The notes: generated by a model from the letters alone, not told the origin. A DNA stretch of 64,000 nt from Flavobacteriales bacterium (GCA_035441065.1 DAORNP010000001.1:16300-80299), one strand, 5' to 3'; shown: positions 1-50,178, counted from the stretch's first letter. Numbers and translations are program-made.

Positions 1-200
1 GTCTGAAGCAACAGCCCAAGTCCGAAGTCATCGACGCCCGCGTTGTTGCTGATGCACGTGAGCCCCTTGGTGCCGCGGCGCACCATGGCCGCGATCAGGT
101 TCTCCGGGATGCCGCACAGCCCGAAGCCGCCGACCATGAGCGTCATGTTGTCCTGCAGGCCATCGAGCGCCGCATCGGGCCCGGCCACCACCTTGTTCAT
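1..200 (-). CDS. scoA: Succinyl-CoA:3-ketoacid CoA-transferase subunit A, N-terminal fragment (left-arm mirror copy, truncated by window start).
   Basis: Mirror of 49483..49682. Start codon cat at 198..200; translation [40 protein letters not shown]... matches CoA-transferase family I alpha subunit. Confidence 0.8.
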   Translation of the reverse strand, partial: MNKVVAGPDAALDGLQDNMTLMVGGFGLCGIPENLIAAMVRRGTKGLTCISNNAGVDDFGLGLLLQ

Positions 201-251
201 GCGTGAAGCGATTGAGCGCCGAATATAACCGGGCGCCCATGCGCGCAAGGG

Positions 252-1124
252 CTACTTCAGGTCCTCCTCGGTGATCACGGCATCGCCCAGATAGCGGCCC
301 TGCTTGAAGATCTTGATCCGTTTCAGGAAGCCATCGCTGTCGTACTCGTAGCGCTTGCCGTCCCACAGGCGGCCATCCTTGAATTCGCCCTGCTGCGAGA
401 GGCGGAGCTGCTTGTCGTAAAGCGTGTTGTAGCCGTTCTCGCGGAATACCATGGCGTTGGTGCGCTCGGTGGGTGCTGGAGCAGGTGCGGCCTCGGCCTT
501 CGGGTCCACCTTCACGTCATCGGCCTTGGGCACGGGCTTGATCCACTTGCTGTTCGCTTCGTTGATCACGCCGTCGTTGAACTGCGCCACTTGCGTGACC
601 TGGCCATTGGTATCGTAACGCTTCAACGTTCCGTCTTCCTTGCCCTCCTCAACGTTCACCGCCACGGCGAGCTGCCCGTTCTCGTGGTAGTACTTCTGCT
701 CGCCATCGCGCACGCCGTATCCATTGAAGATGAAGTCCTGCGCGAGTTTTCCGTTCGGATGCCAGCGCTGGAACTTACCCGTGTTGCGGTCCAGGTCCCA
801 AGTGCCCTGCTCCTCCACTTTCCCGGTCGGGTAATAGGTGCGATAATCGCCCCTGGGACGGCCCATCTGGTAGTTGATCTCGCTCATCACATTGCCGTTG
901 GGCCAATAGCGCTTCCACGTGCCCACGCGCTTGCTGTTGCTGTAGCGGCCCTCTTCGATCAGCTGGCCATCGTTGTACTCGGGCTTCTCCGCTTTCGGCG
1001 CCAGCACCTTCCAATAGCCCTGCTTTCGGCCCATTTCGTCCACCACGTTCAGGGTGTCCTGTGCCAGGGCGGCAACGCGACCGGCGATGAGCAGCATGAT
1101 CAGCAGTGAGAATTGTCGGAACAT
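252..1124 (-). CDS. Secreted MORN-variant/YwqK-like repeat protein.
   Basis: Signal peptide MFRQFSLLIMLLIAGRVAALA. Repeated G-x-W-x-x-Y-x-x-NG units typical of the MORN-variant (YwqK) family. Start verified at cat 1122..1124. Confidence 0.6.
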   Translation of the reverse strand: MFRQFSLLIMLLIAGRVAALAQDTLNVVDEMGRKQGYWKVLAPKAEKPEYNDGQLIEEGRYSNSKRVGTWKRYWPNGNVMSEINYQMGRPRGDYRTYYPTGKVEEQGTWDLDRNTGKFQRWHPNGKLAQDFIFNGYGVRDGEQKYYHENGQLAVAVNVEEGKEDGTLKRYDTNGQVTQVAQFNDGVINEANSKWIKPVPKADDVKVDPKAEAAPAPAPTERTNAMVFRENGYNTLYDKQLRLSQQGEFKDGRLWDGKRYEYDSDGFLKRIKIFKQGRYLGDAVITEEDLK

Positions 1125-1216
1125 GGCGTGTTGGGCTTCGCGAGGCGCGAAACGCTGGCGAGGGGTAGAAGGTTGCATCCCTTCGCTTCGCCCGGATTGT
1201 CCAATGCCGAATGCAA

Positions 1217-2164
1217 TCAACCTCCAATCAACCTCTTCAGGTTCACCATCATGTCGTCCACCATGCCGCTCAGGTCGTACTGCGGCTTCCAGCCCCAATC
1301 GGCGCGGGCGGCGCTATCGTCTATGCTGCGCGGCCAGCTGTCGGCGATGGCCTGGCGGTGATCTGGCGCGTAATCGATGGTGAAGCCGGGAATGTGGCGC
1401 CTCACTTCAGCCGCGATCTGCTCGGGGTCGAAGCTGAAGCCGGCGAGGTTGTAGCTGTTACGCACCTTTACCTGTTCGGCTGGCGCTTCCATCAAGTCGA
1501 TGGTGGCGCGGATGGCGTCGGGCATGTACATCATCGGTAAGGTGCTCTTCGGCCCGAGGAAGCTGGTGTACTTGCCGTGCTTGATCGCTTCGTGGAAGAT
1601 GTGGACAGCGTAGTCGGTGGTGCCGCCGCCGGGCGCGCTCTTCCAGCCGATGAGGCCGGGGTAGCGGATGCTGCGCACATCCACACCAAAGCGCTTGTGG
1701 TAGTACTGGCACCAACCTTCGCCTGCCAGCTTGCTGATGCCGTAAACCGTGGTGGGCTCGGCGATGGTGTGCTGCGGCGTGCCGTCCTTCGGGGTGGTGG
1801 GGCCGAAAACAGCGATGCTGCTGGGCCAATACACGCGCTTCAATTTCCCTTCTCGCGCAAGTTCCAGCACGATGAAGAGGCTCTCCATGTTCAGTTTCCA
1901 CGCGAAAGCGGGATCCTTCTCGGCGGTAGCGCTCAATAATGCCGCAAGCAGATAGACCTCGGTGATGCCATGCTTGTCGATGATGCGTTCGATGCCCCGG
2001 CGGTCCATGGCGTCCACCAGCACGAAGGGACCATCCTGCGCCACTTGGGGCTCCTTGATGTCCGAGGCCACTACATTCTCATTTCCGAATCGGGCGCGCA
2101 GCCCTTCCACGAGCTCGGTGCCGATCTGGCCTGAGCTGCCGATAACGAGGATGCGTTTGGTCAT
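1217..2164 (-). CDS. NAD-dependent epimerase/dehydratase family protein, L-threonine 3-dehydrogenase-like.
   Basis: N-terminal MTKRILVIGSSGQIGTEL Rossmann motif and YxxxK-type SDR epimerase architecture. Carries the divergent patch relative to the right-arm copy. Confidence 0.75.
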   Translation of the reverse strand: MTKRILVIGSSGQIGTELVEGLRARFGNENVVASDIKEPQVAQDGPFVLVDAMDRRGIERIIDKHGITEVYLLAALLSATAEKDPAFAWKLNMESLFIVLELAREGKLKRVYWPSSIAVFGPTTPKDGTPQHTIAEPTTVYGISKLAGEGWCQYYHKRFGVDVRSIRYPGLIGWKSAPGGGTTDYAVHIFHEAIKHGKYTSFLGPKSTLPMMYMPDAIRATIDLMEAPAEQVKVRNSYNLAGFSFDPEQIAAEVRRHIPGFTIDYAPDHRQAIADSWPRSIDDSAARADWGWKPQYDLSGMVDDMMVNLKRLIGG

Positions 2165-2210
2165 GATTGGCGGCAAAACTATGCCTCCAGCCACCACAAT
2201 TAACCCCCAT

Positions 2211-3776
2211 CTATTCTATGAGGATTGGCGCTTGTGCAGCATGCACTTGGCCTACGAAAGTCAACGTGTAATGGCCAGAGGGAAGGCCCCTAAGATCATA
2301 GGTGACCAGATGCTCCCCGGACGTATGCATTTCATTGGAAATAAGTGACCGAACCACGCGGCCAGCAGCGTCAACCACATGGAGTGATATCCGATCAGGG
2401 ATAGAAAGCTCGAAGTACAGACTGAGGCGCTCGCTCAGTGGATTCGGAACGACACGTATTTGTGGATGGAATTGGTTGATCTCATGGACGCCGATCTCCA
2501 GGTCGTTCAGGTGGCGCACTACCGAAAAATACGTTACCATGCCTTGGAAGGAATACCCTGCAACAAGCGGCTTTCCATCGGACTGGAGCGAGAGCGATTC
2601 CGGAATGATCGCCCTATCTGTGAATGAGGTAATCGCTATCCCGGAGTTGCCGAATACCTCATCCAGCACTCCATCGGGGGTATAGCGCATAAGTGCAGTG
2701 TAGTGCGGGGGACCGGTACCTTCCCAGCATTCAACGACCACCAAGACCTTCCCATCCGGTTGGACCACGATATCCTTTCCGACCGCGCTCTCCTGGGCCA
2801 CATAGGTGGTGATCACTCCACCATTGCCGAAGGTCTCATCCAACGACCCGTCAGACATACAGCGGATGGTCGTAACCAGCGCGGGATATCCCGAGAACCC
2901 GGTTGCCAATATCTTCTCGTCCGTTTGAAGGACACCAGAGTACACGCCGGCTTGTCCAGTGCCTGCGGCGATGAGCGACACACCGTTCGTGCCGAATGAT
3001 CCATCGAGGAGGCCGTTCTCAGTTACCCGCACCAAGGCAAATCGACTGGCGGGGAAAGGCAAGGTTCCAATCGAAGCACTGCCCAAAAGCACCAGCTTGC
3101 CATCCGGTTGCTGACGTACGGTGCGGATCTGATCATTGAGAGGAGAAACAGCATGAACCCAGATCCCTCCGGATGCGAAGCCCTCGTCCAGTGCCCCGTT
3201 GGGCAGGTAGCGCACCACCGCCATATCGGCATCATGCCCGCTTGCCGTTCGGCCGGCCAGCAGGATCTTACCATCGGACTGGATCACGAGCGCGAGCACA
3301 TTTTCATTCAAGGGGAAAGAACTGATGTTCGTGAAGACCTGTCCACCCTCACCGAATGAAATATCCACGGACCCATCAGCCATAAACCGCATGGCGGAAA
3401 AAGCTGATGTATGTGTGCCAGCCACCACGATCTTGCCATCTGATTGCAGTGCTCCGTAGCACGGCGGACTCCAGCCTCCCCCGGCCGAAGTGACCCTGCC
3501 GCCAGACCCAAAGGACGCATCCAACGTTCCGTCAGAGAAATACCGTGCAATGGCGATATCACTGCTGAGCGCGCCCAACCAATTGGTGCCGACCACCACA
3601 ACCCTTCCATCGGGCTGGATGAGTACGGATTGGCCATATGCCCTTTCGCTCGAGAAGTCGGTAAGCACCACTCCATCAGTGCCCCAACCAGGGTCAAGCG
3701 ATCCTGCTTGGCCAAAGGATGCAGCGCACCATGAGCACCACAACGCCAATGTGAGTACCGAGTCAAGAACTTTCAT
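2211..3776 (-). CDS. Secreted delta-60 repeat protein with T9SS C-terminal sorting domain.
   Basis: Signal peptide MKVLDSVLTLALWCSWCAAS. Many DGxLDxSFGxGG repeats (delta-60 / SBBP-like). C-terminal ~80 aa beta-sandwich tail ...HYTLTFVGQVHAAQAPILIE typical of Por secretion CTD. Confidence 0.7.
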   Translation of the reverse strand: MKVLDSVLTLALWCSWCAASFGQAGSLDPGWGTDGVVLTDFSSERAYGQSVLIQPDGRVVVVGTNWLGALSSDIAIARYFSDGTLDASFGSGGRVTSAGGGWSPPCYGALQSDGKIVVAGTHTSAFSAMRFMADGSVDISFGEGGQVFTNISSFPLNENVLALVIQSDGKILLAGRTASGHDADMAVVRYLPNGALDEGFASGGIWVHAVSPLNDQIRTVRQQPDGKLVLLGSASIGTLPFPASRFALVRVTENGLLDGSFGTNGVSLIAAGTGQAGVYSGVLQTDEKILATGFSGYPALVTTIRCMSDGSLDETFGNGGVITTYVAQESAVGKDIVVQPDGKVLVVVECWEGTGPPHYTALMRYTPDGVLDEVFGNSGIAITSFTDRAIIPESLSLQSDGKPLVAGYSFQGMVTYFSVVRHLNDLEIGVHEINQFHPQIRVVPNPLSERLSLYFELSIPDRISLHVVDAAGRVVRSLISNEMHTSGEHLVTYDLRGLPSGHYTLTFVGQVHAAQAPILIE

Positions 3777-4008
3777 GGTGCGACAGTGTCGGTTTTTCGG
3801 GGCTGCTCGAAGATAGAACAGGGAATCGCATTCTGATCTACGCAAGCGTCTCGCTCAGCATGTCATCGTGCCTTTCGCTCTCTACCCTGAGGATATCGCA
3901 CCAGACTTCAAAGTGATGTCTCTGTACCACCATCTTTCGGACCGAACGTTGGCTAGTCACGGGTTCCCGGGGGGCCCTCAAGCTTCGGGCCCCGCCTATC
4001 TTCGCCAC

Positions 4009-5112
4009 ATGGATGCCCACCGCCTCCGCAACCTTCACCGTCCCGACATTCTCCGGGCGCGATTAGAGCACGAAGGCGTGCCGCGCACCACCCTTTCCTT
4101 CTACCGCTACGTGCGCCTGAGTGATGTGGAATCCCTTCGCAACACGCTCTACTTGGAGTGGGAAGCGCTCGGCGTACTGGGCCGCATCTACCTCTCGCAG
4201 GAGGGCATCAATGCCCAGGTGAGCTTGCCCACGGCGAATCTTGAGGCCTTCCGCAGCAACCTGAACAGCCGCGAGGCCTTCCGGGGTGTGCCATGGAAGA
4301 TCGCGGTGGAAGATGATGGCAAGAGCTTCCTGAAGCTCGCCATCAAGGTAAAGAGGAAGATCGTGGCCGATGGCCTTGCCGATGATGCCTTCGATGTGAC
4401 CAATGTGGGCGAGCACCTCGACGCGAAGACCTTCAACAAGAAGTTGGAAGAAGGCGCCATCGTGGTGGATATGCGCAACAACTACGAGTGCCTCATCGGG
4501 CACTTCGAGGGGGCCTACCTGCCCAAGGCCGATACGTTCCGAGGCGCGATCGAGGAGGTGAAGGAAGTGATGAAGGAGAAGAAGGGGGCCGAGGTGCTGC
4601 TCTATTGCACCGGCGGAATCCGCTGCGAGAAGGCCAGCGCATATCTGAAGCACGAGGGCTTCACGAATGTGAGCCAGTTGCACGGCGGCATCATCGATTA
4701 TGCCCGGCAGTTGAAAGCCGAAGGCCTGAAGAGCAAATACCTCGGCCAGAACTTCGTGTTCGATGAGCGGCTCGCCGAACGCATCACCGACGATGTGGTG
4801 AGCACCTGCATGCAGTGCGGCGCCAAGAACGACCGCATCACCAATTGCCACGAGGCCACCTGCAACATGCTGCTGGTGCAGTGCGAGGCCTGCGCAGCGA
4901 AATACGCCGACTGTTGCTCACCGAGCTGCTGCGAGATACACCAGCTGCCCATCGAAGCGCAACGCGCTTGGCGCAAAGGCCGCAGCACCCGCAGCACCAA
5001 GACCAAGGCCATCAACGATCCCGAAGGATTAAGGCAGCGCATCCGTGAGGAAGAGGAGCTGCTGGCGCTGAATGGCACCCTGCATCCTGAACTGACGAGC
5101 ATCACGATCTGA
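4009..5112 (+). CDS. trhO: Rhodanese-domain tRNA uridine(34) hydroxylase TrhO (UPF0176/YceA).
   Basis: Rhodanese active-site Cys motif LYCTGGIRCEKA and C-terminal Cys-rich extension. ORF begins at 3868 but the conserved family begins near MDAHRL... Confidence 0.7.
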   Translation: MDAHRLRNLHRPDILRARLEHEGVPRTTLSFYRYVRLSDVESLRNTLYLEWEALGVLGRIYLSQEGINAQVSLPTANLEAFRSNLNSREAFRGVPWKIAVEDDGKSFLKLAIKVKRKIVADGLADDAFDVTNVGEHLDAKTFNKKLEEGAIVVDMRNNYECLIGHFEGAYLPKADTFRGAIEEVKEVMKEKKGAEVLLYCTGGIRCEKASAYLKHEGFTNVSQLHGGIIDYARQLKAEGLKSKYLGQNFVFDERLAERITDDVVSTCMQCGAKNDRITNCHEATCNMLLVQCEACAAKYADCCSPSCCEIHQLPIEAQRAWRKGRSTRSTKTKAINDPEGLRQRIREEEELLALNGTLHPELTSITI

Positions 5113-5153
5113 TCCCGTACGGGCGCGAAATTTCGCGTCCCAACCACCTGCCA

Positions 5154-6311
5154 ATGCCCATCTACCACAGCCTCGGCAAGATTCCGCACAAGCGCCACAC
5201 CGTGTTCAAGAACGGCAAGGACCGCTACTACTACGAGCAGCTCTTCGGCACCATCGGCTTCGATGGCATGAGCACCTTGAGCTACCATGTGCACCGCCCC
5301 ACCATGGTGAAGGAGCTGCGCAAGCCCAAGGACCTTACGCCCAAGATCGCGATTGAGAAGAATATGCGCTCGTTGCGGTTGCATGGCTTCAAGACCAAGC
5401 CCGAGAAGGACCACCTATCCGCGCGTAAGGCCATCCTCGTGAACAGCGATTGCGCCATCGTGCTCGCAGCGCCCCAGGCCAAAAGCGTGGACTACTTCTA
5501 CAAGAACGCTGACTGCGATGAGATGATCTTCATCCACAAGGGGAGCGGCACCCTGCGCACCTTCCTGGGCAACATCGACTTCAAGTACGGTGACTACCTG
5601 ATGATTCCCCGAGGGATGATCTACACGATGGAGTTCAAGGACGCGGACAACCGCCTCTTCATCGTTGAGAGCCACCGCCCCATGTACACGCCCAAGCGCT
5701 ACCGCAACTGGTTCGGGCAATTGCTTGAGCATTCGCCGTTCTGCGAGCGCGATATCCGCCGGCCGAAGAAGCTGGAGACGCATGATGAGAAGGGCAGCTT
5801 CGTGATCAAGGTGAAGAAGCAGAACTTGCTGCACGAACTGGTGTATGCCACGCATCCGTTCGACGTGGTGGGCTGGGACGGCTACAACTACCCCTACGCC
5901 TTCAGCATCCACGACTTCGAGCCGATCACCGGCCGCGTCCACCAGCCGCCGCCTGTGCATCAGACCTTCGAGACCGATGCCTTCGTGGTGTGCAGCTTCG
6001 TGCCGCGCCTCTACGACTACCATCCGCAGGCCATCCCCGCGCCGTACAACCACAGCAACATCGACAGTGACGAGGTGCTGTACTACGTGGACGGCGACTT
6101 CATGAGCCGCAACGACATCGGCCCGGGCCATATCAGTTTGCACCCCGCCGGCATCCCGCACGGTCCGCACCCCGGCGCCATGGAGCGCAGCATCGGCAAG
6201 AAGGAGACCGACGAGCTGGCCGTGATGGTGGACACCTTCAAGCCGCTGATGGTGACCGAAGAGGCGCTGAAGATCGACGACGGGAAGTACTGGAAGAGCT
6301 GGCTGGAGTAG
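5154..6311 (+). CDS. hmgA: Homogentisate 1,2-dioxygenase.
   Basis: Full-length match in character to HGD: MPIYHSLGKIPHKRHTVFKNGKDRYYYEQLFGTIGFDG... with cupin His/Glu ligands. Confidence 0.9.
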   Translation: MPIYHSLGKIPHKRHTVFKNGKDRYYYEQLFGTIGFDGMSTLSYHVHRPTMVKELRKPKDLTPKIAIEKNMRSLRLHGFKTKPEKDHLSARKAILVNSDCAIVLAAPQAKSVDYFYKNADCDEMIFIHKGSGTLRTFLGNIDFKYGDYLMIPRGMIYTMEFKDADNRLFIVESHRPMYTPKRYRNWFGQLLEHSPFCERDIRRPKKLETHDEKGSFVIKVKKQNLLHELVYATHPFDVVGWDGYNYPYAFSIHDFEPITGRVHQPPPVHQTFETDAFVVCSFVPRLYDYHPQAIPAPYNHSNIDSDEVLYYVDGDFMSRNDIGPGHISLHPAGIPHGPHPGAMERSIGKKETDELAVMVDTFKPLMVTEEALKIDDGKYWKSWLE

Positions 6312-6389
6312 AGGGCTTGCCTGCCGCCTACGCTGGAGGCTCGGGCTGAGCGCAGAGGACCCGGTGGCTATAAGTCGCTGGCCTCTTCT

Positions 6390-7094
6390 TCACACCACCA
6401 GCTCCGCATCGAACAGGTCCGCGATCTCCAACCGCAATCTCTTCTTCACGGCCTCGATGTCCACCTCGCTGCCCAGCTCAGCGGCCATGCTGGTGACGCC
6501 TTTGTCCGCGATCCCGCAAGGCACGATGTTCCGGAAATAGCTGAGGTCCGTGTTCACGTTGAACGCGAAGCCGTGCATGGTGACCCACCGGCTGGCGCGG
6601 ATGCCGAAGGCGCAGATCTTCCGGGCCTTGACGGGGTCGGTCCAGTCGAGCCATACGCCCGTGAGTCCGTCAATCCTCCCTGCTTTGATGCCGTATGCTT
6701 CCAGTGTGCCGATGATGGCCTCCTCCAGCGTGCGCAGGTAGCGGTGGATGTCGGTGAAATGATGGTCGAGGTCGAAGATGGGGTAGCCAACGATCTGCCC
6801 CGGCCCGTGGTAGGTGATGTCGCCGCCGCGATCGATGGGGAAGAACTGAACGCCCTTCTCGCGCAGTCCTTGCTCATTCAGCAGCAAATGGCTCTGCTTG
6901 CCGCTCTTTCCCAGCGTGTACACGTGATTATGCTCGCAGAAGAGCAAATGATCCTCGGTGGTCAGTTGCTCGTTTTCTGGCAGCGAGCGGTTCGCGATCT
7001 TCCGGTCGATGGTCTCCTTGAAAAGGCGCGTTTGCAGGTCCCACGCGGTGGCGTAGTCGATGAGGCCGAGGTCTTGGAAGTGGATGAGGCGCAT
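6390..7094 (-). CDS. lipB: Lipoyl(octanoyl) transferase.
   Basis: MRLIHFQDLGLIDYATAWDLQ...RGGDITYHGPGQIVGYP...KICAFGIRASRWVTMHGFAFNV, a classic LipB. The ORF track uses an upstream TTG; the ATG at 7092..7094 is preferred. Confidence 0.85.
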   Translation of the reverse strand: MRLIHFQDLGLIDYATAWDLQTRLFKETIDRKIANRSLPENEQLTTEDHLLFCEHNHVYTLGKSGKQSHLLLNEQGLREKGVQFFPIDRGGDITYHGPGQIVGYPIFDLDHHFTDIHRYLRTLEEAIIGTLEAYGIKAGRIDGLTGVWLDWTDPVKARKICAFGIRASRWVTMHGFAFNVNTDLSYFRNIVPCGIADKGVTSMAAELGSEVDIEAVKKRLRLEIADLFDAELVV

Positions 7095-7101
7095 GGTGTT
7101 T

Positions 7102-7122
7102 GCCGCAGAGACGCAGAGGCGC
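7102..7122. repeat. 21-bp inverted repeat (left member) bracketing the GxxExxY gene.
   Basis: gccgcagagacgcagaggcgc; its reverse complement occurs at 7534..7554. Confidence 0.8.
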
Positions 7123-7135
7123 TGAGAATGCGAAT

Positions 7136-7522
7136 TCAAGGTTCGTCCAATCCGTTAACGACACGCCGCACGCCTTCCGCGAGCACCGGCGCGTTGAAGT
7201 TGATGAGCAGTCCGAGTTTGCAGCCAGTGAGTTTCAGGTAGCTCAGCAGTTGCGCACGATGGACTTCCTGCACGAGCTCAATGGCTTTGATTTCGACGAT
7301 GATCCGCTGGTCCACCCATAGGTCGAGCCGAAAGCCCATGTCGAGCCGCTCACCCTTGTAGCGCACAGGCACGGGATGCTGCTGAAGGAAAGGAATGCCT
7401 GCATCTCGCAGTTCACGCGCCAGACAATGCTCGTATATGCTCTCAAGCAATCCCGGCCCGAGCTCTCGATGAACCTCAATGGCCGCTCCAATAATCGCCC
7501 CTGAAAGCTCGCGATAGAGCAT
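7136..7522 (-). CDS. GxxExxY family protein (PD-(D/E)XK-like small protein).
   Basis: 128 aa with AIEVHRELGPGLLESIYEHCL (G-x-x-E-x-x-Y motif). Bracketed by a 21-bp IR. Confidence 0.7.
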   Translation of the reverse strand: MLYRELSGAIIGAAIEVHRELGPGLLESIYEHCLARELRDAGIPFLQQHPVPVRYKGERLDMGFRLDLWVDQRIIVEIKAIELVQEVHRAQLLSYLKLTGCKLGLLINFNAPVLAEGVRRVVNGLDEP

Positions 7523-42588: not shown

Positions 42589-43293
42589 ATGCGCCTCATC
42601 CACTTCCAAGACCTCGGCCTCATCGACTACGCCACCGCGTGGGACCTGCAAACGCGCCTTTTCAAGGAGACCATCGACCGGAAGATCGCGAACCGCTCGC
42701 TGCCAGAAAACGAGCAACTGACCACCGAGGATCATTTGCTCTTCTGCGAGCATAATCACGTGTACACGCTGGGAAAGAGCGGCAAGCAGAGCCATTTGCT
42801 GCTGAATGAGCAAGGACTGCGCGAGAAGGGCGTTCAGTTCTTCCCCATCGATCGCGGCGGCGACATCACCTACCACGGGCCGGGGCAGATCGTTGGCTAC
42901 CCCATCTTCGACCTCGACCATCATTTCACCGACATCCACCGCTACCTGCGCACGCTGGAGGAGGCCATCATCGGCACACTGGAAGCATACGGCATCAAAG
43001 CAGGGAGGATTGACGGACTCACGGGCGTATGGCTCGACTGGACCGACCCCGTCAAGGCCCGGAAGATCTGCGCCTTCGGCATCCGCGCCAGCCGGTGGGT
43101 CACCATGCACGGCTTCGCGTTCAACGTGAACACGGACCTCAGCTATTTCCGGAACATCGTGCCTTGCGGGATCGCGGACAAAGGCGTCACCAGCATGGCC
43201 GCTGAGCTGGGCAGCGAGGTGGACATCGAGGCCGTGAAGAAGAGATTGCGGTTGGAGATCGCGGACCTGTTCGATGCGGAGCTGGTGGTGTGA
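42589..43293 (+). CDS. lipB: Lipoyl(octanoyl) transferase, right-arm copy.
   Basis: ATG verified at 42589..42591. Identical translation. Confidence 0.85.
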   Translation: MRLIHFQDLGLIDYATAWDLQTRLFKETIDRKIANRSLPENEQLTTEDHLLFCEHNHVYTLGKSGKQSHLLLNEQGLREKGVQFFPIDRGGDITYHGPGQIVGYPIFDLDHHFTDIHRYLRTLEEAIIGTLEAYGIKAGRIDGLTGVWLDWTDPVKARKICAFGIRASRWVTMHGFAFNVNTDLSYFRNIVPCGIADKGVTSMAAELGSEVDIEAVKKRLRLEIADLFDAELVV

Positions 43294-43371
43294 AGAAGAG
43301 GCCAGCGACTTATAGCCACCGGGTCCTCTGCGCTCAGCCCGAGCCTCCAGCGTAGGCGGCAGGCAAGCCCT

Positions 43372-44529
43372 CTACTCCAGCCAGCTCTTCCAGTACTTCC
43401 CGTCGTCGATCTTCAGCGCCTCTTCGGTCACCATCAGCGGCTTGAAGGTGTCCACCATCACGGCCAGCTCGTCGGTCTCCTTCTTGCCGATGCTGCGCTC
43501 CATGGCGCCGGGGTGCGGACCGTGCGGGATGCCGGCGGGGTGCAAACTGATATGGCCCGGGCCGATGTCGTTGCGGCTCATGAAGTCGCCGTCCACGTAG
43601 TACAGCACCTCGTCACTGTCGATGTTGCTGTGGTTGTACGGCGCGGGGATGGCCTGCGGATGGTAGTCGTAGAGGCGCGGCACGAAGCTGCACACCACGA
43701 AGGCATCGGTCTCGAAGGTCTGATGCACAGGCGGCGGCTGGTGGACGCGGCCGGTGATCGGCTCGAAGTCGTGGATGCTGAAGGCGTAGGGGTAGTTGTA
43801 GCCGTCCCAGCCCACCACGTCGAACGGATGCGTGGCATACACCAGTTCGTGCAGCAAGTTCTGCTTCTTCACCTTGATCACGAAGCTGCCCTTCTCATCA
43901 TGCGTCTCCAGCTTCTTCGGCCGGCGGATATCGCGCTCGCAGAACGGCGAATGCTCAAGCAATTGCCCGAACCAGTTGCGGTAGCGCTTGGGCGTGTACA
44001 TGGGGCGGTGGCTCTCAACGATGAAGAGGCGGTTGTCCGCGTCCTTGAACTCCATCGTGTAGATCATCCCTCGGGGAATCATCAGGTAGTCACCGTACTT
44101 GAAGTCGATGTTGCCCAGGAAGGTGCGCAGGGTGCCGCTCCCCTTGTGGATGAAGATCATCTCATCGCAGTCAGCGTTCTTGTAGAAGTAGTCCACGCTT
44201 TTGGCCTGGGGCGCTGCGAGCACGATGGCGCAATCGCTGTTCACGAGGATGGCCTTACGCGCGGATAGGTGGTCCTTCTCGGGCTTGGTCTTGAAGCCAT
44301 GCAACCGCAACGAGCGCATATTCTTCTCAATCGCGATCTTGGGCGTAAGGTCCTTGGGCTTGCGCAGCTCCTTCACCATGGTGGGGCGGTGCACATGGTA
44401 GCTCAAGGTGCTCATGCCATCGAAGCCGATGGTGCCGAAGAGCTGCTCGTAGTAGTAGCGGTCCTTGCCGTTCTTGAACACGGTGTGGCGCTTGTGCGGA
44501 ATCTTGCCGAGGCTGTGGTAGATGGGCAT
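43372..44529 (-). CDS. hmgA: Homogentisate 1,2-dioxygenase, right-arm copy.
   Basis: Identical translation to 5154..6311(+). Confidence 0.9.
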   Translation of the reverse strand: MPIYHSLGKIPHKRHTVFKNGKDRYYYEQLFGTIGFDGMSTLSYHVHRPTMVKELRKPKDLTPKIAIEKNMRSLRLHGFKTKPEKDHLSARKAILVNSDCAIVLAAPQAKSVDYFYKNADCDEMIFIHKGSGTLRTFLGNIDFKYGDYLMIPRGMIYTMEFKDADNRLFIVESHRPMYTPKRYRNWFGQLLEHSPFCERDIRRPKKLETHDEKGSFVIKVKKQNLLHELVYATHPFDVVGWDGYNYPYAFSIHDFEPITGRVHQPPPVHQTFETDAFVVCSFVPRLYDYHPQAIPAPYNHSNIDSDEVLYYVDGDFMSRNDIGPGHISLHPAGIPHGPHPGAMERSIGKKETDELAVMVDTFKPLMVTEEALKIDDGKYWKSWLE

Positions 44530-44570
44530 TGGCAGGTGGTTGGGACGCGAAATTTCGCGCCCGTACGGGA

Positions 44571-45674
44571 TCAGATCGTGATGCTCGTCAGTTCAGGATG
44601 CAGGGTGCCATTCAGCGCCAGCAGCTCCTCTTCCTCACGGATGCGCTGCCTTAATCCTTCGGGATCGTTGATGGCCTTGGTCTTGGTGCTGCGGGTGCTG
44701 CGGCCTTTGCGCCAAGCGCGTTGCGCTTCGATGGGCAGCTGGTGTATCTCGCAGCAGCTCGGTGAGCAACAGTCGGCGTATTTCGCTGCGCAGGCCTCGC
44801 ACTGCACCAGCAGCATGTTGCAGGTGGCCTCGTGGCAATTGGTGATGCGGTCGTTCTTGGCGCCGCACTGCATGCAGGTGCTCACCACATCGTCGGTGAT
44901 GCGTTCGGCGAGCCGCTCATCGAACACGAAGTTCTGGCCGAGGTATTTGCTCTTCAGGCCTTCGGCTTTCAACTGCCGGGCATAATCGATGATGCCGCCG
45001 TGCAACTGGCTCACATTCGTGAAGCCCTCGTGCTTCAGATATGCGCTGGCCTTCTCGCAGCGGATTCCGCCGGTGCAATAGAGCAGCACCTCGGCCCCCT
45101 TCTTCTCCTTCATCACTTCCTTCACCTCCTCGATCGCGCCTCGGAACGTATCGGCCTTGGGCAGGTAGGCCCCCTCGAAGTGCCCGATGAGGCACTCGTA
45201 GTTGTTGCGCATATCCACCACGATGGCGCCTTCTTCCAACTTCTTGTTGAAGGTCTTCGCGTCGAGGTGCTCGCCCACATTGGTCACATCGAAGGCATCA
45301 TCGGCAAGGCCATCGGCCACGATCTTCCTCTTTACCTTGATGGCGAGCTTCAGGAAGCTCTTGCCATCATCTTCCACCGCGATCTTCCATGGCACACCCC
45401 GGAAGGCCTCGCGGCTGTTCAGGTTGCTGCGGAAGGCCTCAAGATTCGCCGTGGGCAAGCTCACCTGGGCATTGATGCCCTCCTGCGAGAGGTAGATGCG
45501 GCCCAGTACGCCGAGCGCTTCCCACTCCAAGTAGAGCGTGTTGCGAAGGGATTCCACATCACTCAGGCGCACGTAGCGGTAGAAGGAAAGGGTGGTGCGC
45601 GGCACGCCTTCGTGCTCTAATCGCGCCCGGAGAATGTCGGGACGGTGAAGGTTGCGGAGGCGGTGGGCATCCAT
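44571..45674 (-). CDS. trhO: TrhO rhodanese-domain protein, right-arm copy.
   Basis: Mirror of 4009..5112(+). Confidence 0.7.
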   Translation of the reverse strand: MDAHRLRNLHRPDILRARLEHEGVPRTTLSFYRYVRLSDVESLRNTLYLEWEALGVLGRIYLSQEGINAQVSLPTANLEAFRSNLNSREAFRGVPWKIAVEDDGKSFLKLAIKVKRKIVADGLADDAFDVTNVGEHLDAKTFNKKLEEGAIVVDMRNNYECLIGHFEGAYLPKADTFRGAIEEVKEVMKEKKGAEVLLYCTGGIRCEKASAYLKHEGFTNVSQLHGGIIDYARQLKAEGLKSKYLGQNFVFDERLAERITDDVVSTCMQCGAKNDRITNCHEATCNMLLVQCEACAAKYADCCSPSCCEIHQLPIEAQRAWRKGRSTRSTKTKAINDPEGLRQRIREEEELLALNGTLHPELTSITI

Positions 45675-45906
45675 GTGGCGAAGATAGGCGGGGCCCGAAG
45701 CTTGAGGGCCCCCCGGGAACCCGTGACTAGCCAACGTTCGGTCCGAAAGATGGTGGTACAGAGACATCACTTTGAAGTCTGGTGCGATATCCTCAGGGTA
45801 GAGAGCGAAAGGCACGATGACATGCTGAGCGAGACGCTTGCGTAGATCAGAATGCGATTCCCTGTTCTATCTTCGAGCAGCCCCGAAAAACCGACACTGT
45901 CGCACC

Positions 45907-47472
45907 ATGAAAGTTCTTGACTCGGTACTCACATTGGCGTTGTGGTGCTCATGGTGCGCTGCATCCTTTGGCCAAGCAGGATCGCTTGACCCTGGTTGGG
46001 GCACTGATGGAGTGGTGCTTACCGACTTCTCGAGCGAAAGGGCATATGGCCAATCCGTACTCATCCAGCCCGATGGAAGGGTTGTGGTGGTCGGCACCAA
46101 TTGGTTGGGCGCGCTCAGCAGTGATATCGCCATTGCACGGTATTTCTCTGACGGAACGTTGGATGCGTCCTTTGGGTCTGGCGGCAGGGTCACTTCGGCC
46201 GGGGGAGGCTGGAGTCCGCCGTGCTACGGAGCACTGCAATCAGATGGCAAGATCGTGGTGGCTGGCACACATACATCAGCTTTTTCCGCCATGCGGTTTA
46301 TGGCTGATGGGTCCGTGGATATTTCATTCGGTGAGGGTGGACAGGTCTTCACGAACATCAGTTCTTTCCCCTTGAATGAAAATGTGCTCGCGCTCGTGAT
46401 CCAGTCCGATGGTAAGATCCTGCTGGCCGGCCGAACGGCAAGCGGGCATGATGCCGATATGGCGGTGGTGCGCTACCTGCCCAACGGGGCACTGGACGAG
46501 GGCTTCGCATCCGGAGGGATCTGGGTTCATGCTGTTTCTCCTCTCAATGATCAGATCCGCACCGTACGTCAGCAACCGGATGGCAAGCTGGTGCTTTTGG
46601 GCAGTGCTTCGATTGGAACCTTGCCTTTCCCCGCCAGTCGATTTGCCTTGGTGCGGGTAACTGAGAACGGCCTCCTCGATGGATCATTCGGCACGAACGG
46701 TGTGTCGCTCATCGCCGCAGGCACTGGACAAGCCGGCGTGTACTCTGGTGTCCTTCAAACGGACGAGAAGATATTGGCAACCGGGTTCTCGGGATATCCC
46801 GCGCTGGTTACGACCATCCGCTGTATGTCTGACGGGTCGTTGGATGAGACCTTCGGCAATGGTGGAGTGATCACCACCTATGTGGCCCAGGAGAGCGCGG
46901 TCGGAAAGGATATCGTGGTCCAACCGGATGGGAAGGTCTTGGTGGTCGTTGAATGCTGGGAAGGTACCGGTCCCCCGCACTACACTGCACTTATGCGCTA
47001 TACCCCCGATGGAGTGCTGGATGAGGTATTCGGCAACTCCGGGATAGCGATTACCTCATTCACAGATAGGGCGATCATTCCGGAATCGCTCTCGCTCCAG
47101 TCCGATGGAAAGCCGCTTGTTGCAGGGTATTCCTTCCAAGGCATGGTAACGTATTTTTCGGTAGTGCGCCACCTGAACGACCTGGAGATCGGCGTCCATG
47201 AGATCAACCAATTCCATCCACAAATACGTGTCGTTCCGAATCCACTGAGCGAGCGCCTCAGTCTGTACTTCGAGCTTTCTATCCCTGATCGGATATCACT
47301 CCATGTGGTTGACGCTGCTGGCCGCGTGGTTCGGTCACTTATTTCCAATGAAATGCATACGTCCGGGGAGCATCTGGTCACCTATGATCTTAGGGGCCTT
47401 CCCTCTGGCCATTACACGTTGACTTTCGTAGGCCAAGTGCATGCTGCACAAGCGCCAATCCTCATAGAATAG
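45907..47472 (+). CDS. Delta-60 repeat protein with T9SS CTD, right-arm copy.
   Basis: Identical translation to the left copy. Confidence 0.7.
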   Translation: MKVLDSVLTLALWCSWCAASFGQAGSLDPGWGTDGVVLTDFSSERAYGQSVLIQPDGRVVVVGTNWLGALSSDIAIARYFSDGTLDASFGSGGRVTSAGGGWSPPCYGALQSDGKIVVAGTHTSAFSAMRFMADGSVDISFGEGGQVFTNISSFPLNENVLALVIQSDGKILLAGRTASGHDADMAVVRYLPNGALDEGFASGGIWVHAVSPLNDQIRTVRQQPDGKLVLLGSASIGTLPFPASRFALVRVTENGLLDGSFGTNGVSLIAAGTGQAGVYSGVLQTDEKILATGFSGYPALVTTIRCMSDGSLDETFGNGGVITTYVAQESAVGKDIVVQPDGKVLVVVECWEGTGPPHYTALMRYTPDGVLDEVFGNSGIAITSFTDRAIIPESLSLQSDGKPLVAGYSFQGMVTYFSVVRHLNDLEIGVHEINQFHPQIRVVPNPLSERLSLYFELSIPDRISLHVVDAAGRVVRSLISNEMHTSGEHLVTYDLRGLPSGHYTLTFVGQVHAAQAPILIE

Positions 47473-47518
47473 ATGGGGGTTAATTGTGGTGGCTGGAGGC
47501 ATAGTTTTGCCGCCAATC

Positions 47519-48466
47519 ATGACCAAACGCATCCTCGTTATCGGCAGCTCAGGCCAGATCGGCACCGAGCTCGTGGAAGGGCTGCGCGCCCGATTCGGAA
47601 ATGAGAATGTAGTGGCCTCGGACATCAAGGAGCCCCAAGTGGCGCAGAACGGTCCTTTCGCCATGGTCGATGCCATGGATCGCCGCGGCATCGAGCGCAT
47701 CATCGACAAGCACGGCATCACCGAGGTCTATCTGCTTGCGGCATTATTGAGCGCTACCGCCGAGAAGGATCCCGCTTTCGCGTGGAAACTGAACATGGAG
47801 AGCCTCTTCATCGTGCTGGAACTTGCGCGAGAAGGGAAATTGAAGCGCGTGTATTGGCCCAGCAGCATCGCTGTTTTCGGCCCCACCACCCCGAAGGACG
47901 GCACGCCGCAGCACACCATCGCCGAGCCCACCACGGTTTACGGCATCAGCAAGCTGGCAGGCGAAGGTTGGTGCCAGTACTACCACAAGCGCTTTGGTGT
48001 GGATGTGCGCAGCATCCGCTACCCCGGCCTCATCGGCTGGAAGAGCGCGCCCGGCGGCGGCACCACCGACTACGCTGTCCACATCTTCCACGAAGCGATC
48101 AAGCACGGCAAGTACACCAGCTTCCTCGGGCCGAAGAGCACCTTACCGATGATGTACATGCCCGACGCCATCCGCGCCACCATCGACTTGATGGAAGCGC
48201 CAGCCGAACAGGTAAAGGTGCGTAACAGCTACAACCTCGCCGGCTTCAGCTTCGACCCCGAGCAGATCGCGGCTGAAGTGAGGCGCCACATTCCCGGCTT
48301 CACCATCGATTACGCGCCAGATCACCGCCAGGCCATCGCCGACAGCTGGCCGCGCAGCATAGACGATAGCGCCGCCCGCGCCGATTGGGGCTGGAAGCCG
48401 CAGTACGACCTGAGCGGCATGGTGGACGACATGATGGTGAACCTGAAGAGGTTGATTGGAGGTTGA
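47519..48466 (+). CDS. NAD-dependent epimerase/dehydratase (TDH-like), right-arm copy; carries a 66-bp divergent patch (12 nt differences) relative to the left copy.
   Basis: ATG verified at 47519. ...QVAQNGPFAMVDAMD... here versus ...QVAQDGPFVLVDAMD... in the left arm. Confidence 0.75.
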   Translation: MTKRILVIGSSGQIGTELVEGLRARFGNENVVASDIKEPQVAQNGPFAMVDAMDRRGIERIIDKHGITEVYLLAALLSATAEKDPAFAWKLNMESLFIVLELAREGKLKRVYWPSSIAVFGPTTPKDGTPQHTIAEPTTVYGISKLAGEGWCQYYHKRFGVDVRSIRYPGLIGWKSAPGGGTTDYAVHIFHEAIKHGKYTSFLGPKSTLPMMYMPDAIRATIDLMEAPAEQVKVRNSYNLAGFSFDPEQIAAEVRRHIPGFTIDYAPDHRQAIADSWPRSIDDSAARADWGWKPQYDLSGMVDDMMVNLKRLIGG

Positions 48467-48558
48467 TTGCATTCGGCATTGGACAATCCGGGCGAAGCGA
48501 AGGGATGCAACCTTCTACCCCTCGCCAGCGTTTCGCGCCTCGCGAAGCCCAACACGCC

Positions 48559-49431
48559 ATGTTCCGACAATTCTCACTGCTGATCATGCTGCTCATCGCC
48601 GGTCGCGTTGCCGCCCTGGCACAGGACACCCTGAACGTGGTGGACGAAATGGGCCGAAAGCAGGGCTATTGGAAGGTGCTGGCGCCGAAAGCGGAGAAGC
48701 CCGAGTACAACGATGGCCAGCTGATCGAAGAGGGCCGCTACAGCAACAGCAAGCGCGTGGGCACGTGGAAGCGCTATTGGCCCAACGGCAATGTGATGAG
48801 CGAGATCAACTACCAGATGGGCCGTCCCAGGGGCGATTATCGCACCTATTACCCGACCGGGAAAGTGGAGGAGCAGGGCACTTGGGACCTGGACCGCAAC
48901 ACGGGTAAGTTCCAGCGCTGGCATCCGAACGGAAAACTCGCGCAGGACTTCATCTTCAATGGATACGGCGTGCGCGATGGCGAGCAGAAGTACTACCACG
49001 AGAACGGGCAGCTCGCCGTGGCGGTGAACGTTGAGGAGGGCAAGGAAGACGGAACGTTGAAGCGTTACGATACCAATGGCCAGGTCACGCAAGTGGCGCA
49101 GTTCAACGACGGCGTGATCAACGAAGCGAACAGCAAGTGGATCAAGCCCGTGCCCAAGGCCGATGACGTGAAGGTGGACCCGAAGGCCGAGGCCGCACCT
49201 GCTCCAGCACCCACCGAGCGCACCAACGCCATGGTATTCCGCGAGAACGGCTACAACACGCTTTACGACAAGCAGCTCCGCCTCTCGCAGCAGGGCGAAT
49301 TCAAGGATGGCCGCCTGTGGGACGGCAAGCGCTACGAGTACGACAGCGATGGCTTCCTGAAACGGATCAAGATCTTCAAGCAGGGCCGCTATCTGGGCGA
49401 TGCCGTGATCACCGAGGAGGACCTGAAGTAG
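48559..49431 (+). CDS. MORN-variant/YwqK-like repeat protein, right-arm copy.
   Basis: ATG verified at 48559. Identical translation. Confidence 0.6.
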   Translation: MFRQFSLLIMLLIAGRVAALAQDTLNVVDEMGRKQGYWKVLAPKAEKPEYNDGQLIEEGRYSNSKRVGTWKRYWPNGNVMSEINYQMGRPRGDYRTYYPTGKVEEQGTWDLDRNTGKFQRWHPNGKLAQDFIFNGYGVRDGEQKYYHENGQLAVAVNVEEGKEDGTLKRYDTNGQVTQVAQFNDGVINEANSKWIKPVPKADDVKVDPKAEAAPAPAPTERTNAMVFRENGYNTLYDKQLRLSQQGEFKDGRLWDGKRYEYDSDGFLKRIKIFKQGRYLGDAVITEEDLK

Positions 49432-49482
49432 CCCTTGCGCGCATGGGCGCCCGGTTATATTCGGCGCTCAATCGCTTCACGC

Positions 49483-50178
49483 ATGAACAAGGTGGTGGCC
49501 GGGCCCGATGCGGCGCTCGATGGCCTGCAGGACAACATGACGCTCATGGTCGGCGGCTTCGGGCTGTGCGGCATCCCGGAGAACCTGATCGCGGCCATGG
49601 TGCGCCGCGGCACCAAGGGGCTCACGTGCATCAGCAACAACGCGGGCGTCGATGACTTCGGACTTGGGCTGTTGCTTCAGACGCGGCAGATCAAGAAGAT
49701 GATCAGCAGCTATGTGGGCGAGAACGATGAGTTCGAGCGCCAGATGCTCAGCGGCGAATTGGAAGTGGAGCTGATCCCACAAGGCACCTTGGCCGAGCGC
49801 TGCCGCGCCGGTGGCGCTGGCATCCCCGCGTTCTTCACCCCGGCGGGCTATGGCACCGAGGTGGGCGAAGGCAAGGAGGCGCGCGAATTCAACGGCAAGA
49901 TGCACGTGCTGGAGAGCTGGCTCCGCGCCGACTTCGCATTGGTGAAGGCCTGGAAGGGCGATCGTTTCGGCAACCTCGTGTACAAGCGCACGGCGCGCAA
50001 CTTCAACCCCATGATGGCCATGGCGGGCAAGGTCACCGTAGCCGAGGTGGAGCACCTGGTGGAACCCGGCGAGCTCGATCCGGATGAGATTCACACGCCG
50101 GGCATCTTCGTGCAGCGCATCTTCCAGGGCGGCGGCTACGAGAAGCGCATCGAGCAGCGCACGGTGCGCAAACGCTAG
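49483..50178 (+). CDS. scoA: Succinyl-CoA:3-ketoacid (acetoacetate) CoA-transferase subunit A, full copy; straddles the right end of the inverted repeat at 49682.
   Basis: [36 protein letters not shown]...[12 protein letters not shown]...[33 protein letters not shown] verified at 49483; TAG at 50176..50178. Confidence 0.85.

What the first reader, a model, noticed from the sequence alone, without database searches (positions are those of the whole stretch)
1..49682. Roughly 50-kb near-perfect palindrome made of two inverted 24.8-kb arms carrying housekeeping genes
Positions x and 49683-x are reverse complements across the whole of 1..49682. Apparently essential single-copy genes (lysS, gatA, dut, tatA, lipB) are therefore present twice, in head-to-head orientation around a central pair of divergent flippase genes. 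Large perfect palindromes are normally unstable in bacteria (SbcCD cleavage). A real inverted duplication this size would be remarkable, as would a head-to-head replication intermediate of a hairpin-ended linear replicon. The common alternative is an artefact: an MDA or long-read fold-back chimera, or a missed SMRTbell adapter. No protelomerase, transposase or recombinase is visible in the window.
Basis: seen in the sequence. Interest (0 to 1): 0.85.

Follow-up and report, generated by a model that had tools for sequence, protein, structure and literature searches.

The report
Mirror-image contig from an assembly artefact
The giant "palindrome" is almost certainly not in the bacterium's chromosome: an assembler turned back on itself at a natural 58-base hairpin and wrote the same ~41-kb stretch out twice in opposite directions, so the finding is ordinary apart from flagging a faulty public record.

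Summary
The palindrome is real in the sequence. Positions x and 49683-x are complementary, with 15 mismatches and no indels. The right-hand boundary at 49682 is only a window-edge effect. Exact-protein look-ups place the window in an 82,280-bp contig of an NCBI third-party MAG (Flavobacteriales, locus tags PKY96_). Every gene tested there, including those in the supposed "unique flank", has two accessions placed symmetrically around the two flippases. So at least 78 kb, and probably the whole contig, is its own reverse complement.

The centre sits exactly on a native 58-bp perfect palindrome. This is a conserved stem-loop between an enoyl-CoA hydratase gene and the flippase gene. An independent short-read contig of the same population, 100% identical, runs straight through that hairpin into the hydratase gene, as do relatives. 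For k ≤ 59, the fold-back junction has no k-mer that is missing from the native arrangement. Native reads alone can therefore produce it as a graph walk.

The arms differ only in two short tracts. No protelomerase or recombinase was found.

Verdict: assembly or sequencing artefact (about 0.88). A real hairpin-nucleated inverted duplication is not excluded (about 0.07).

The parts
1..24841 (-). Left arm, as far as the window shows it. It is the reverse complement of 24842-49682. It continues beyond the window's left edge in the source contig.
   Evidence: 15 mismatches, no indels; mirror copies of the genes at 50181-63917 exist on the same contig, outside the window
24842..49682 (+). Right arm, the part mirrored inside the window. 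Gene order is native: flippase, dut, NTP-transferase, TPR, DUF4292, M23, tatA, gatA, LysM-SLT, DUF4837, HEAT, lysS, AhpC, a toxin-antitoxin pair, PGI, PDDEXK_3, lipB, HgmA, rhodanese, DUF5122, epimerase, MORN, CoA-transferase subunit A.
   Evidence: same order in relatives L004 and L005
49683..64000 (+). Continuation of the right arm. It is not a unique flank; its mirror lies left of the window in the 82,280-bp source contig.
   Evidence: accession pairs HRD51015/68, 51012/71, 51011/72, 51010/73, 51009/74, 51008/75 and 51007/76, all symmetric about 51041/42
24813..24870 (.). Native 58-bp perfect palindrome (29-nt arms, no loop, three ATGGAC at 10-bp spacing per arm). The giant palindrome is centred on it. 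In the native genome it lies 5 nt after the stop codon of an enoyl-CoA hydratase gene and about 30 nt before the flippase start.
   Evidence: present with a non-mirrored upstream flank in L003; DNA hairpin in a 117-nt context, -42.6 kcal/mol, z = -11.5; conserved with 3 compensatory pairs in L007 and L009; the only hairpin with arms of 10 nt or more in 45.9 kb
23348..24781 (-). Mirror copy of the flippase gene (HRD51041.1)
24902..26335 (+). Flippase gene in native orientation (HRD51042.1), Polysacc_synt_3 family
47648..47713 (+). Arm-difference tract 1, in the epimerase gene (mirror at 1970-2035). It has 12 substitutions: 7 synonymous third-position changes and 5 that together change 3 residues conservatively. 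The two versions are deposited as HRD51065.1 (right) and HRD51018.1 (left).
41949..41959 (+). Arm-difference tract 2, in the PGI gene (mirror at 7724-7734). It has 3 substitutions changing 2 residues. The left-arm version equals the independent JGI contig. The right-arm version puts Q at a Pro that is invariant in the 11 relatives compared.

Best explanation
The palindrome belongs to the deposited contig, not to the organism's chromosome.

The native locus reads enoyl-CoA hydratase gene, then a 58-bp perfect hairpin, then flippase, dut and so on. During assembly, the walk coming leftwards along the flippase side entered this hairpin. It left on the reverse complement of the strand it came from, instead of continuing into the hydratase gene. 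The result is a contig of the form reverse-complement(X) + X, where X is about 41 kb and ends at the hairpin.

The hairpin is 58 bp long and perfect. Any de Bruijn graph with k ≤ 59 therefore has an ambiguous crossing here. The mirrored path uses only k-mers that the native genome supplies, so no chimeric DNA molecule is needed. This step is shown.

Why the wrong exit was taken is inferred. The hydratase-side branch may have been pruned or out-competed, because this intergenic region varies between strains.

The two short tracts where the arms differ are best read as places where a strain-mixed read pool, or a local error, was resolved differently in the two copies. That could happen through alternative graph bubbles or through polishing each arm separately. 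This is also inferred.

A closely related sub-variant is that a few fold-back reads, made by polymerase snap-back at the same hairpin during amplification or library preparation, seeded the join. Without reads, the two sub-variants cannot be separated. Within the 0.88 for 'artefact', I put about 0.55 on the graph walk and about 0.33 on fold-back molecules.
For: (1) No unique flank. Every window protein looked up has two accessions on one 82,280-bp contig. Each pair is symmetric about HRD51041/HRD51042 and sums to 102083, out to window 63917. Locus tags PKY96_00320, 00340, 00355 and 00360 map to HRD51068, 72, 75 and 76. Gene 1 is therefore HRD51005, which puts 37 genes left of the centre. The contig length is even and equals 2 x 41,140.

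(2) The native junction exists. JGI contig L003 is 100% identical to the right arm for 2,165 bp. Upstream of the hairpin it carries the hydratase gene, a 1,194-aa HATPase_c protein and a further ORF, not a mirror copy. L001 is 100% identical to the left arm over 4.9 kb.

(3) Relatives L004, L005 (CP129489.1, position 3.08 Mb of 3.92 Mb), L007, L008, L009 and L010 all have the hydratase gene upstream of the flippase.

(4) The centre coincides to the base with the only strong hairpin in 45.9 kb of reconstructed native sequence. A random breakpoint would fall within it about 0.1% of the time, so the hairpin is causal.

(5) For k = 21 to 59, the fold-back junction has 0 k-mers absent from the native sequence. 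At k = 60 it has 1.

(6) SPAdes and MEGAHIT spell palindromic unitigs in full, and such inverted loops can be 'pushed through' (PMC9528984). Palindromic contigs are reported as assembly artefacts in bacterial short-read and single-cell assemblies (PMC9455707 and PMC12755884). Fold-back reads are a known long-read and MDA artefact (PMC12870357, PMC13141652 and PMC6218980).

(7) Apart from two tracts of 66 and 11 bp, the arms are exactly identical. That fits one sequence written out twice. The same population shows this kind of clustered polymorphism elsewhere (L002).
Against: No reads were available. The absence of molecules carrying the mirrored junction is therefore inferred, not shown.

A pure palindromic unitig would have perfectly identical arms. 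The 15 differences need an extra step (bubbles or polishing) that I could not verify.

The assembler and read type of the third-party MAG are unknown. It is also not shown that the MAG and the JGI contigs come from the same read set, although the 100% identity suggests so.

The outermost ~2 kb on the right and ~16.3 kb on the left of the contig were not seen as DNA. Their symmetry rests on protein accessions, locus-tag arithmetic and contig length.

A native hairpin at the centre is also what a real fold-back duplication would show.
Confidence: 0.88

Rival explanations
1. The inverted duplication is real and formed in vivo. A double-strand break or stalled fork near the 58-bp palindrome exposed single-stranded DNA. 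The DNA snapped back at the hairpin, was extended into a hairpin-capped end, and was replicated into a head-to-head palindrome. This is the pathway shown in E. coli lacking SbcCD and RecA, and proposed for the L. bulgaricus terminus repeat.
For: The centre lies exactly on a strong native hairpin, which is the known nucleation site for such events (PMC3315005; PMC5345009; ODIRA, PMC10766183). The arms are not perfectly identical, which a simple twice-read graph edge would not give.
Against: No outer junction to unique DNA is seen: the contig is mirrored essentially end to end. The native junction is present at 100% identity in an independent assembly. The junction needs no sequence that the native genome lacks at k ≤ 59. 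The documented natural bacterial case has a 1-8.8-kb spacer, and the spacer-less E. coli case needed an sbcCD recA mutant. A 12-substitution, mostly synonymous tract cannot arise by mutation after a recent duplication.
Confidence: 0.07
2. The centre is the replicated telomere of a linear, hairpin-ended replicon resolved by a protelomerase, as in Borrelia, phage N15 or the Agrobacterium linear chromosome. Alternatively, reads ran around a hairpin telomere.
For: The palindrome is perfect and spacer-less at the centre. The arms contain only chromosome-like genes.
Against: The same-species contig L003 and six relatives continue through the site into the hydratase gene and beyond. In CP129489.1 the locus is internal, at 3.08 Mb of 3.92 Mb. 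No protelomerase, recombinase or transposase family was found among the ORFs scanned on the right arm, and the left arm mirrors it. In relatives the hairpin is an ordinary 26-27-bp stem with a 6-nt loop behind a gene.
Confidence: 0.01
3. Two co-existing strains' copies of the same locus were joined head to head (a haplotype-join misassembly). Each arm would then be a clean haplotype of a different strain.
For: The arm differences are confined to two tracts. The epimerase tract looks like a natural allele pair, with 7 synonymous changes, and both versions resemble states seen in relatives. The population is micro-diverse.
Against: This is a variant of the artefact explanation, not an alternative to it. 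The right-arm PGI version carries Q at a Pro that is invariant in the relatives compared, so it looks like an error rather than a strain allele. Only the left-arm PGI version is found in the independent assembly.
Confidence: 0.04

Closest known systems
Palindromic (self-reverse-complementary) contigs produced by assemblers at inverted loops or palindromes (Rahman & Medvedev 2022, PMC9528984; reported as artefacts in M. bovis assemblies, PMC9455707, and in cyanobacterial single-cell genomes, PMC12755884)
   Same: The contig is mirrored essentially end to end, has an even length and no spacer, and every gene is annotated twice. The junction can be generated from native k-mers up to k = 59.
   Different: The arms differ at 15 positions in two tracts, so there was an extra consensus or bubble step. 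Here the nucleating native palindrome could be identified and shown to be a conserved stem-loop.
Fold-back or palindromic chimeric reads from MDA, missed SMRTbell adapters, or nanopore ligation libraries (Pacasus, PMC6218980; Breakinator, PMC12870357; PMC13141652)
   Same: [quoted passage not shown]
   Different: Those artefacts usually break at fragment ends or arbitrary positions. Here the break is exactly at the only strong hairpin in about 46 kb. Arms of about 41 kb with essentially no errors are more than a single read would give.
Palindrome-centred inverted chromosome duplications in E. coli sbcCD recA mutants (Darmon et al. 2010, PMC3315005)
   Same: A large head-to-head duplication centred on a pre-existing short palindrome.
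   Different: That case was shown by Southern blotting and microscopy in a mutant carrying an engineered 246-bp palindrome. Here there is no physical evidence, and the native junction co-exists.
Large inverted repeats (23-37.6 kb per repeat copy) at the replication terminus of Lactobacillus delbrueckii ssp. bulgaricus (PMC5345009)
   Same: Tens of kilobases of inverted duplication carrying ordinary chromosomal genes.
   Different: Those repeats are separated by 1-8.8 kb of unique sequence, have defined outer junctions, lie at the terminus, and recur in several strains. None of these features is seen here.
Replicated hairpin telomeres of protelomerase-resolved linear replicons (own knowledge: Borrelia ResT, phage N15 TelN, Agrobacterium TelA)
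   Same: Perfect dyad symmetry at the junction.
   Different: The site is internal and contiguous in the same species and in relatives, and no protelomerase was found.

Membership tests
Assembly artefact: self-reverse-complementary contig | The mirror symmetry extends to the contig ends, with no unique flank and no outer junction | tested here: met
   Accession pairs are symmetric about HRD51041/42 out to window 63917, which is at least 78 kb of 82,280 bp. Locus-tag arithmetic puts gene 1 at HRD51005. The length is even, 2 x 41,140. The last ~2 kb on each side is inferred, not seen.
Assembly artefact: self-reverse-complementary contig | The un-mirrored (native) junction exists in independent data from the same organism | tested here: met
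   L003 is 100% identical downstream of the hairpin and carries the hydratase gene upstream.
Assembly artefact: self-reverse-complementary contig | The mirrored junction can be generated from native sequence alone at the assembler's k | tested here: met
   0 novel k-mers for k ≤ 59 and 1 at k = 60. The assembler's actual k is unknown.
Assembly artefact: self-reverse-complementary contig | No reads or pairs support the mirrored junction beyond the native palindrome, and arm depth is single-copy | not testable with these tools
   Reads are not available here.
Real inverted duplication (E. coli sbcCD recA type or L. bulgaricus type) | Outer junctions joining the duplicated arm to unique chromosomal DNA | tested here: not met
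   None within the window. Gene pairs remain mirrored to within about 2 kb of the contig ends.
Real inverted duplication (E. coli sbcCD recA type or L. bulgaricus type) | Nucleated at a pre-existing short inverted repeat | tested here: met
   A native 58-bp palindrome lies at the centre. This feature is shared with the artefact explanation.
Real inverted duplication (E. coli sbcCD recA type or L. bulgaricus type) | Physical evidence: double depth, junction-spanning molecules, Southern blot or PCR | not testable with these tools
   Needs reads or DNA.
Hairpin-telomere linear replicon | The site is a replicon end in the organism and in its relatives | tested here: not met
   The site is contiguous in L003, L004, L005 (internal in a 3.92-Mb record) and L007-L010.
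Hairpin-telomere linear replicon | A protelomerase (telomere resolvase) is encoded | tested here: inconclusive
   No such family was found among the ~30 larger ORFs of the right arm and its continuation that were scanned. The rest of the genome is unseen, and six ORFs have no family assignment.

The most novel reading that the evidence does not exclude
In part of this Flavobacteriales population, the conserved 58-bp hairpin behind the enoyl-CoA hydratase gene really did nucleate a spacer-less inverted duplication, or a hairpin-capped linear palindromic molecule, of more than 78 kb. It would carry about 37 housekeeping genes, and the assembler captured it. That would be a natural, wild-type counterpart of the palindrome-centred duplications so far seen in E. 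coli only in sbcCD recA mutants.
Probability: 0.07. Interest if true: 0.75.

Novelty: not a real feature. Interest (0 to 1): 0.08.

Why it matters
As biology, it matters little. The most likely reading is that the organism has one copy of these genes in the ordinary order.

As data hygiene, it matters somewhat. A public MAG contig of 82,280 bp appears to be about 41 kb of real sequence written out twice. About 37 proteins are deposited in duplicate (HRD51005-HRD51078). This inflates the apparent genome size, the gene-duplication and contamination estimates, and any pangenome or paralogue count that uses the record.

The case also gives a simple rule for future scans. First, a palindrome whose boundary coincides with a window or contig edge has no measured extent. 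Second, look for a short native palindrome at the centre, and test whether the mirrored junction contains any k-mer that the native arrangement lacks.

If the minority reading were true, it would be the first natural example of a spacer-less palindrome of more than 78 kb in a wild-type bacterial chromosome.

Tried and rejected
(1) Finding the source contig as DNA failed. Exact-pattern scans of metagenome contigs (twice) and viral contigs found nothing. The genome-contig scan returned only relatives of 87% amino-acid identity or less. The gene-position index does not hold the NCBI contig. The source was identified only through exact-protein cluster look-ups.

(2) Testing whether both epimerase alleles and the right-arm PGI allele occur on independent contigs gave nothing on record. 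It therefore could not be shown that both arm versions exist in the population. Only the left-arm PGI version is independently seen.

(3) The idea that the hairpin belongs to a dispersed REP-like repeat family was rejected. There are no further copies in the window, even with 3 mismatches, and among the 85 loci it occurs only at the orthologous site in L003, L007 and L009.

(4) A random fragment-end fold-back read was rejected as the sole cause. The centre coincides with the only hairpin with arms of 10 nt or more in 45.9 kb.

(5) A hairpin telomere was rejected on contiguity in the same species and in relatives.

(6) A literature search for the JGI sample identifier returned nothing, so the sample type and sequencing method remain unknown.

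(7) Composition and GC-skew profiles showed nothing beyond the expected mirror symmetry.
Full report
**Observation.** Pairing x with 49683-x gives 24,826 complementary positions out of 24,841. There are no indels, and shifting the centre by even one base drops the match to background. The centre (24841/24842...GGACTGA|TCAGTCC...) has no spacer. The 15 mismatches form two clusters: 12 within 66 bp (left 1970-2035, right 47648-47713) and 3 within 11 bp (left 7724-7734, right 41949-41959). The near-perfect palindrome is therefore real in the sequence as given.

**The stated extent is a window effect.** Position 49682 mirrors window position 1, so the window cannot show anything further. It also lies inside a CoA-transferase subunit A gene (49435-50178), with no feature at the boundary.

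Exact-sequence look-ups identified the source: an NCBI third-party MAG named 'Flavobacteriales bacterium', locus-tag prefix PKY96, with one contig of 82,280 bp. Every protein I looked up carries two accessions on that contig, and each pair sums to 102083:
- flippase, HRD51041/42
- nucleotidyltransferase, 51039/44
- LysM-SLT protein, 51033/50
- lysS, 51028/55
- homogentisate dioxygenase-like protein, 51021/62
- CoA-transferase subunit A, 51016/67

The same holds for the genes of the supposed unique flank:
- 51015/68 (window 50181-52001)
- 51012/71 (CoA-transferase subunit B)
- 51011/72
- 51010/73
- 51009/74
- 51008/75
- 51007/76 (window 61617-63917)

The palindrome therefore extends at least 39,076 bp on each side, which is at least 78 kb of the 82.28-kb contig.

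Locus tags PKY96_00320, 00340, 00355 and 00360 correspond to HRD51068, 72, 75 and 76. Gene 1 of the record is therefore HRD51005, which puts 37 protein genes left of the centre. I count 35 on the right within the window, with about 2 kb of contig left beyond it. No tRNA genes interrupt the numbering. The contig length is even and equals 2 x 41,140. The simplest reading is that the whole contig is its own reverse complement, with no unique flank on either side. This last step is inference from accessions, tags and length; I did not see the outer DNA.

**What the locus looks like natively.** The lineage is a high-GC group of uncultured Flavobacteriales. Three short-read contigs from JGI metagenome 3300006417 belong to the same population:
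- L001 (4.9 kb) is 100% identical to the left arm.
- L003 is 100% identical to the right arm over 2,165 bp.
- L002 is 99.4% identical, and all of its differences lie in one 37-bp tract.

L003 is decisive. Downstream it matches flippase and dut exactly. Upstream of the centre it carries an enoyl-CoA hydratase gene, a 1,194-aa HATPase_c protein and a further large ORF, not a mirror image. More distant relatives have the same order: giant PKD/CHU_C protein, HATPase_c protein, hydratase, flippase, dut and onwards. These include a 141-kb contig (L004) and CP129489.1 (L005), where the locus is internal, at 3.08 Mb of 3.92 Mb. Downstream, the window's right arm follows the relatives' gene order. The only non-native adjacency in the window is the centre itself.

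**The centre is a native hairpin.** The BLAST match of L003 runs 29 nt past the centre. The native sequence itself contains a 58-bp perfect palindrome (window 24813-24870). It has 29-nt arms, no loop, and three ATGGAC motifs at 10-bp spacing in each arm. It begins 5 nt after the hydratase stop codon and ends about 30 nt before the flippase start. As single-stranded DNA, the 117-nt region containing it folds at -42.6 kcal/mol (z = -11.5).

Two relatives at 77-79% flippase identity (L007, L009) have the same element at the same place, as a 26-27-bp stem with a 6-nt loop. L009 keeps the stem through three double-sided (compensatory) changes. It is therefore a selected stem-loop, most likely a terminator-like or regulatory element; that function is inference.

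It is the only perfect hairpin with arms of 10 nt or more and a loop of 8 nt or less in 45.9 kb of reconstructed native sequence. A random breakpoint would fall inside it about once in a thousand tries. The hairpin is therefore the cause of the fold-back, whatever the process was.

**Mechanism.** I rebuilt the native arrangement (L003 upstream sequence plus the window's right arm). I then asked whether the mirrored junction contains any k-mer that the native sequence, on either strand, lacks. It contains none for k = 21 to 59, one at k = 60, and more above that. In any de Bruijn graph with k ≤ 59, the hairpin is a two-in, two-out crossing. The inputs are the hydratase side and the reverse complement of the flippase side. 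The outputs are the flippase side and the reverse complement of the hydratase side. The path 'reverse-complement flippase side, then hairpin, then flippase side' is as valid as the true one.

If the hydratase branch is pruned or loses out, the flippase-side unitig ends in a lone inverted loop. SPAdes and MEGAHIT spell palindromic unitigs out in full, and such inverted loops can be pushed through (PMC9528984). Pruning is plausible here, because the hydratase-flippase spacer varies between relatives. L004 has two extra ORFs in it, L005 has a ParD/ParE pair, and others have unrelated sequence.

Whole-contig palindromes have been reported as assembly artefacts in bacterial short-read and single-cell data sets (PMC9455707 and PMC12755884).

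An alternative within the artefact class is that real fold-back molecules or reads seeded the join. Polymerase snap-back at the hairpin could make them during MDA or end repair, or they could be unsplit long reads (PMC6218980, PMC12870357 and PMC13141652). I cannot separate these two routes without the reads or the assembly method.

**The arm differences.** In the epimerase gene, 7 of the 12 differences are synonymous third-position changes. The other 5 change three residues conservatively (N/D, A/V, M/L). The states on both arms resemble states seen in close relatives. This looks like a natural allelic tract, not sequencing noise or mutation after a duplication.

In the PGI gene, the left-arm version equals the independent JGI contig and the family consensus. 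The right-arm version has Q at a proline that is invariant in the 11 relatives compared, and it occurs only in this record. It is probably a local error or a rare variant. Both versions of both genes are deposited as separate proteins: HRD51018 and 51065 for the epimerase, HRD51024 and 51059 for PGI.

The population shows the same kind of clustered micro-diversity elsewhere: 9 substitutions plus a 6-bp in-frame indel at 28284-28320 in L002. The pattern is exact identity everywhere except two compact tracts. It fits one sequence written out twice, with two bubbles or polishing decisions resolved differently. It does not fit two copies evolving separately. This is inference, and it is the least secure link in the argument.

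**Rivals.** A real hairpin-nucleated inverted duplication is mechanistically respectable. E. coli forms such duplications at a 246-bp interrupted palindrome, but only without SbcCD and RecA (PMC3315005). L. delbrueckii ssp. bulgaricus carries repeats of 23-37.6 kb at the terminus, but these have a 1-8.8-kb spacer and defined outer junctions (PMC5345009).

Here there is no outer junction, no spacer and no physical evidence. The native junction co-exists at 100% identity. I give this reading about 0.07.

A hairpin telomere is excluded by contiguity through the site in the same species and in relatives. No protelomerase, recombinase or transposase was found among the scanned ORFs.

**Verdict.** This is not a biological feature. 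It is a mirrored contig generated at a native 58-bp palindrome. Interest is low. The practical value is that a public record carries about 37 duplicated proteins, and that the case yields a reusable check for similar findings.

Noticed in passing
window 24813-24870 (also L003 6758-6815, L007 9912-9969, L009 948-1005): The native 58-bp stem-loop directly after the enoyl-CoA hydratase stop codon has three ATGGAC motifs at exact 10-bp spacing on each arm. Species at 77-79% flippase identity keep it, with three compensatory base-pair changes. It could be a terminator, or a binding site for a repeat-recognising protein.
   Followed up: partly
L004 8983-10004; L005 8459-9900; L006, L008, L010, L011 upstream of the flippase start: The hydratase-flippase intergenic region is a variable spot among relatives. 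L004 has two ORFs with no family, L005 has a further no-family ORF plus a ParD/ParE toxin-antitoxin pair, and others have unrelated sequence. L005, L006 and L011 share a different motif (GTTCAyCTG.GT.CATCyG.GG).
   Followed up: no
window 50181-55501: Three large ORFs (606, 573 and 632 aa as listed; the first is annotated as 592 aa in NCBI) have no Pfam or NCBIfam match. They sit between the genes for CoA-transferase subunits A (49435-50178) and B (55498-56214), which are normally adjacent. Further no-family ORFs lie at 56224-57567, 60070-61932 and 61617-63992, next to GT2 and GT39/PMT_2 glycosyltransferases. Together this may be an uncharacterised membrane glycosylation cluster.
   Followed up: no
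window 41949-41959 (PGI gene, right arm; HRD51059.1): The right-arm PGI copy reads RRYTQH, where the left arm, the JGI contig and most of the 11 relatives compared read RKYTPH or xKYTPH (one relative has RRHTPH). Q replaces a proline that is invariant in those relatives, so this is probably an assembly or polishing error in the deposited record.
   Followed up: partly
window 28284-28320 compared with L002: An independent contig of the same population differs from both arms by 9 substitutions and a 6-bp in-frame deletion. All of these are clustered in 37 bp of the TPR-protein gene. This points to mosaic, recombination-like micro-diversity in the population.
   Followed up: partly
window 40455-41117 and 42161-42547 (mirrored in the left arm): A PIN-domain/DUF6364 toxin-antitoxin pair and a PDDEXK_3 nuclease gene are interspersed among housekeeping genes (lysS, PGI, lipB). 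The TA pair is named from the gene calls on the 100%-identical contig L001; PDDEXK_3 was also confirmed by Pfam on the window sequence.
   Followed up: no
source record (NCBI proteins HRD51005-HRD51078, locus tags PKY96_00005 to about PKY96_00370): About 37 proteins are deposited twice because of the mirrored contig. Completeness, contamination and copy-number statistics for this MAG will be distorted.
   Followed up: partly
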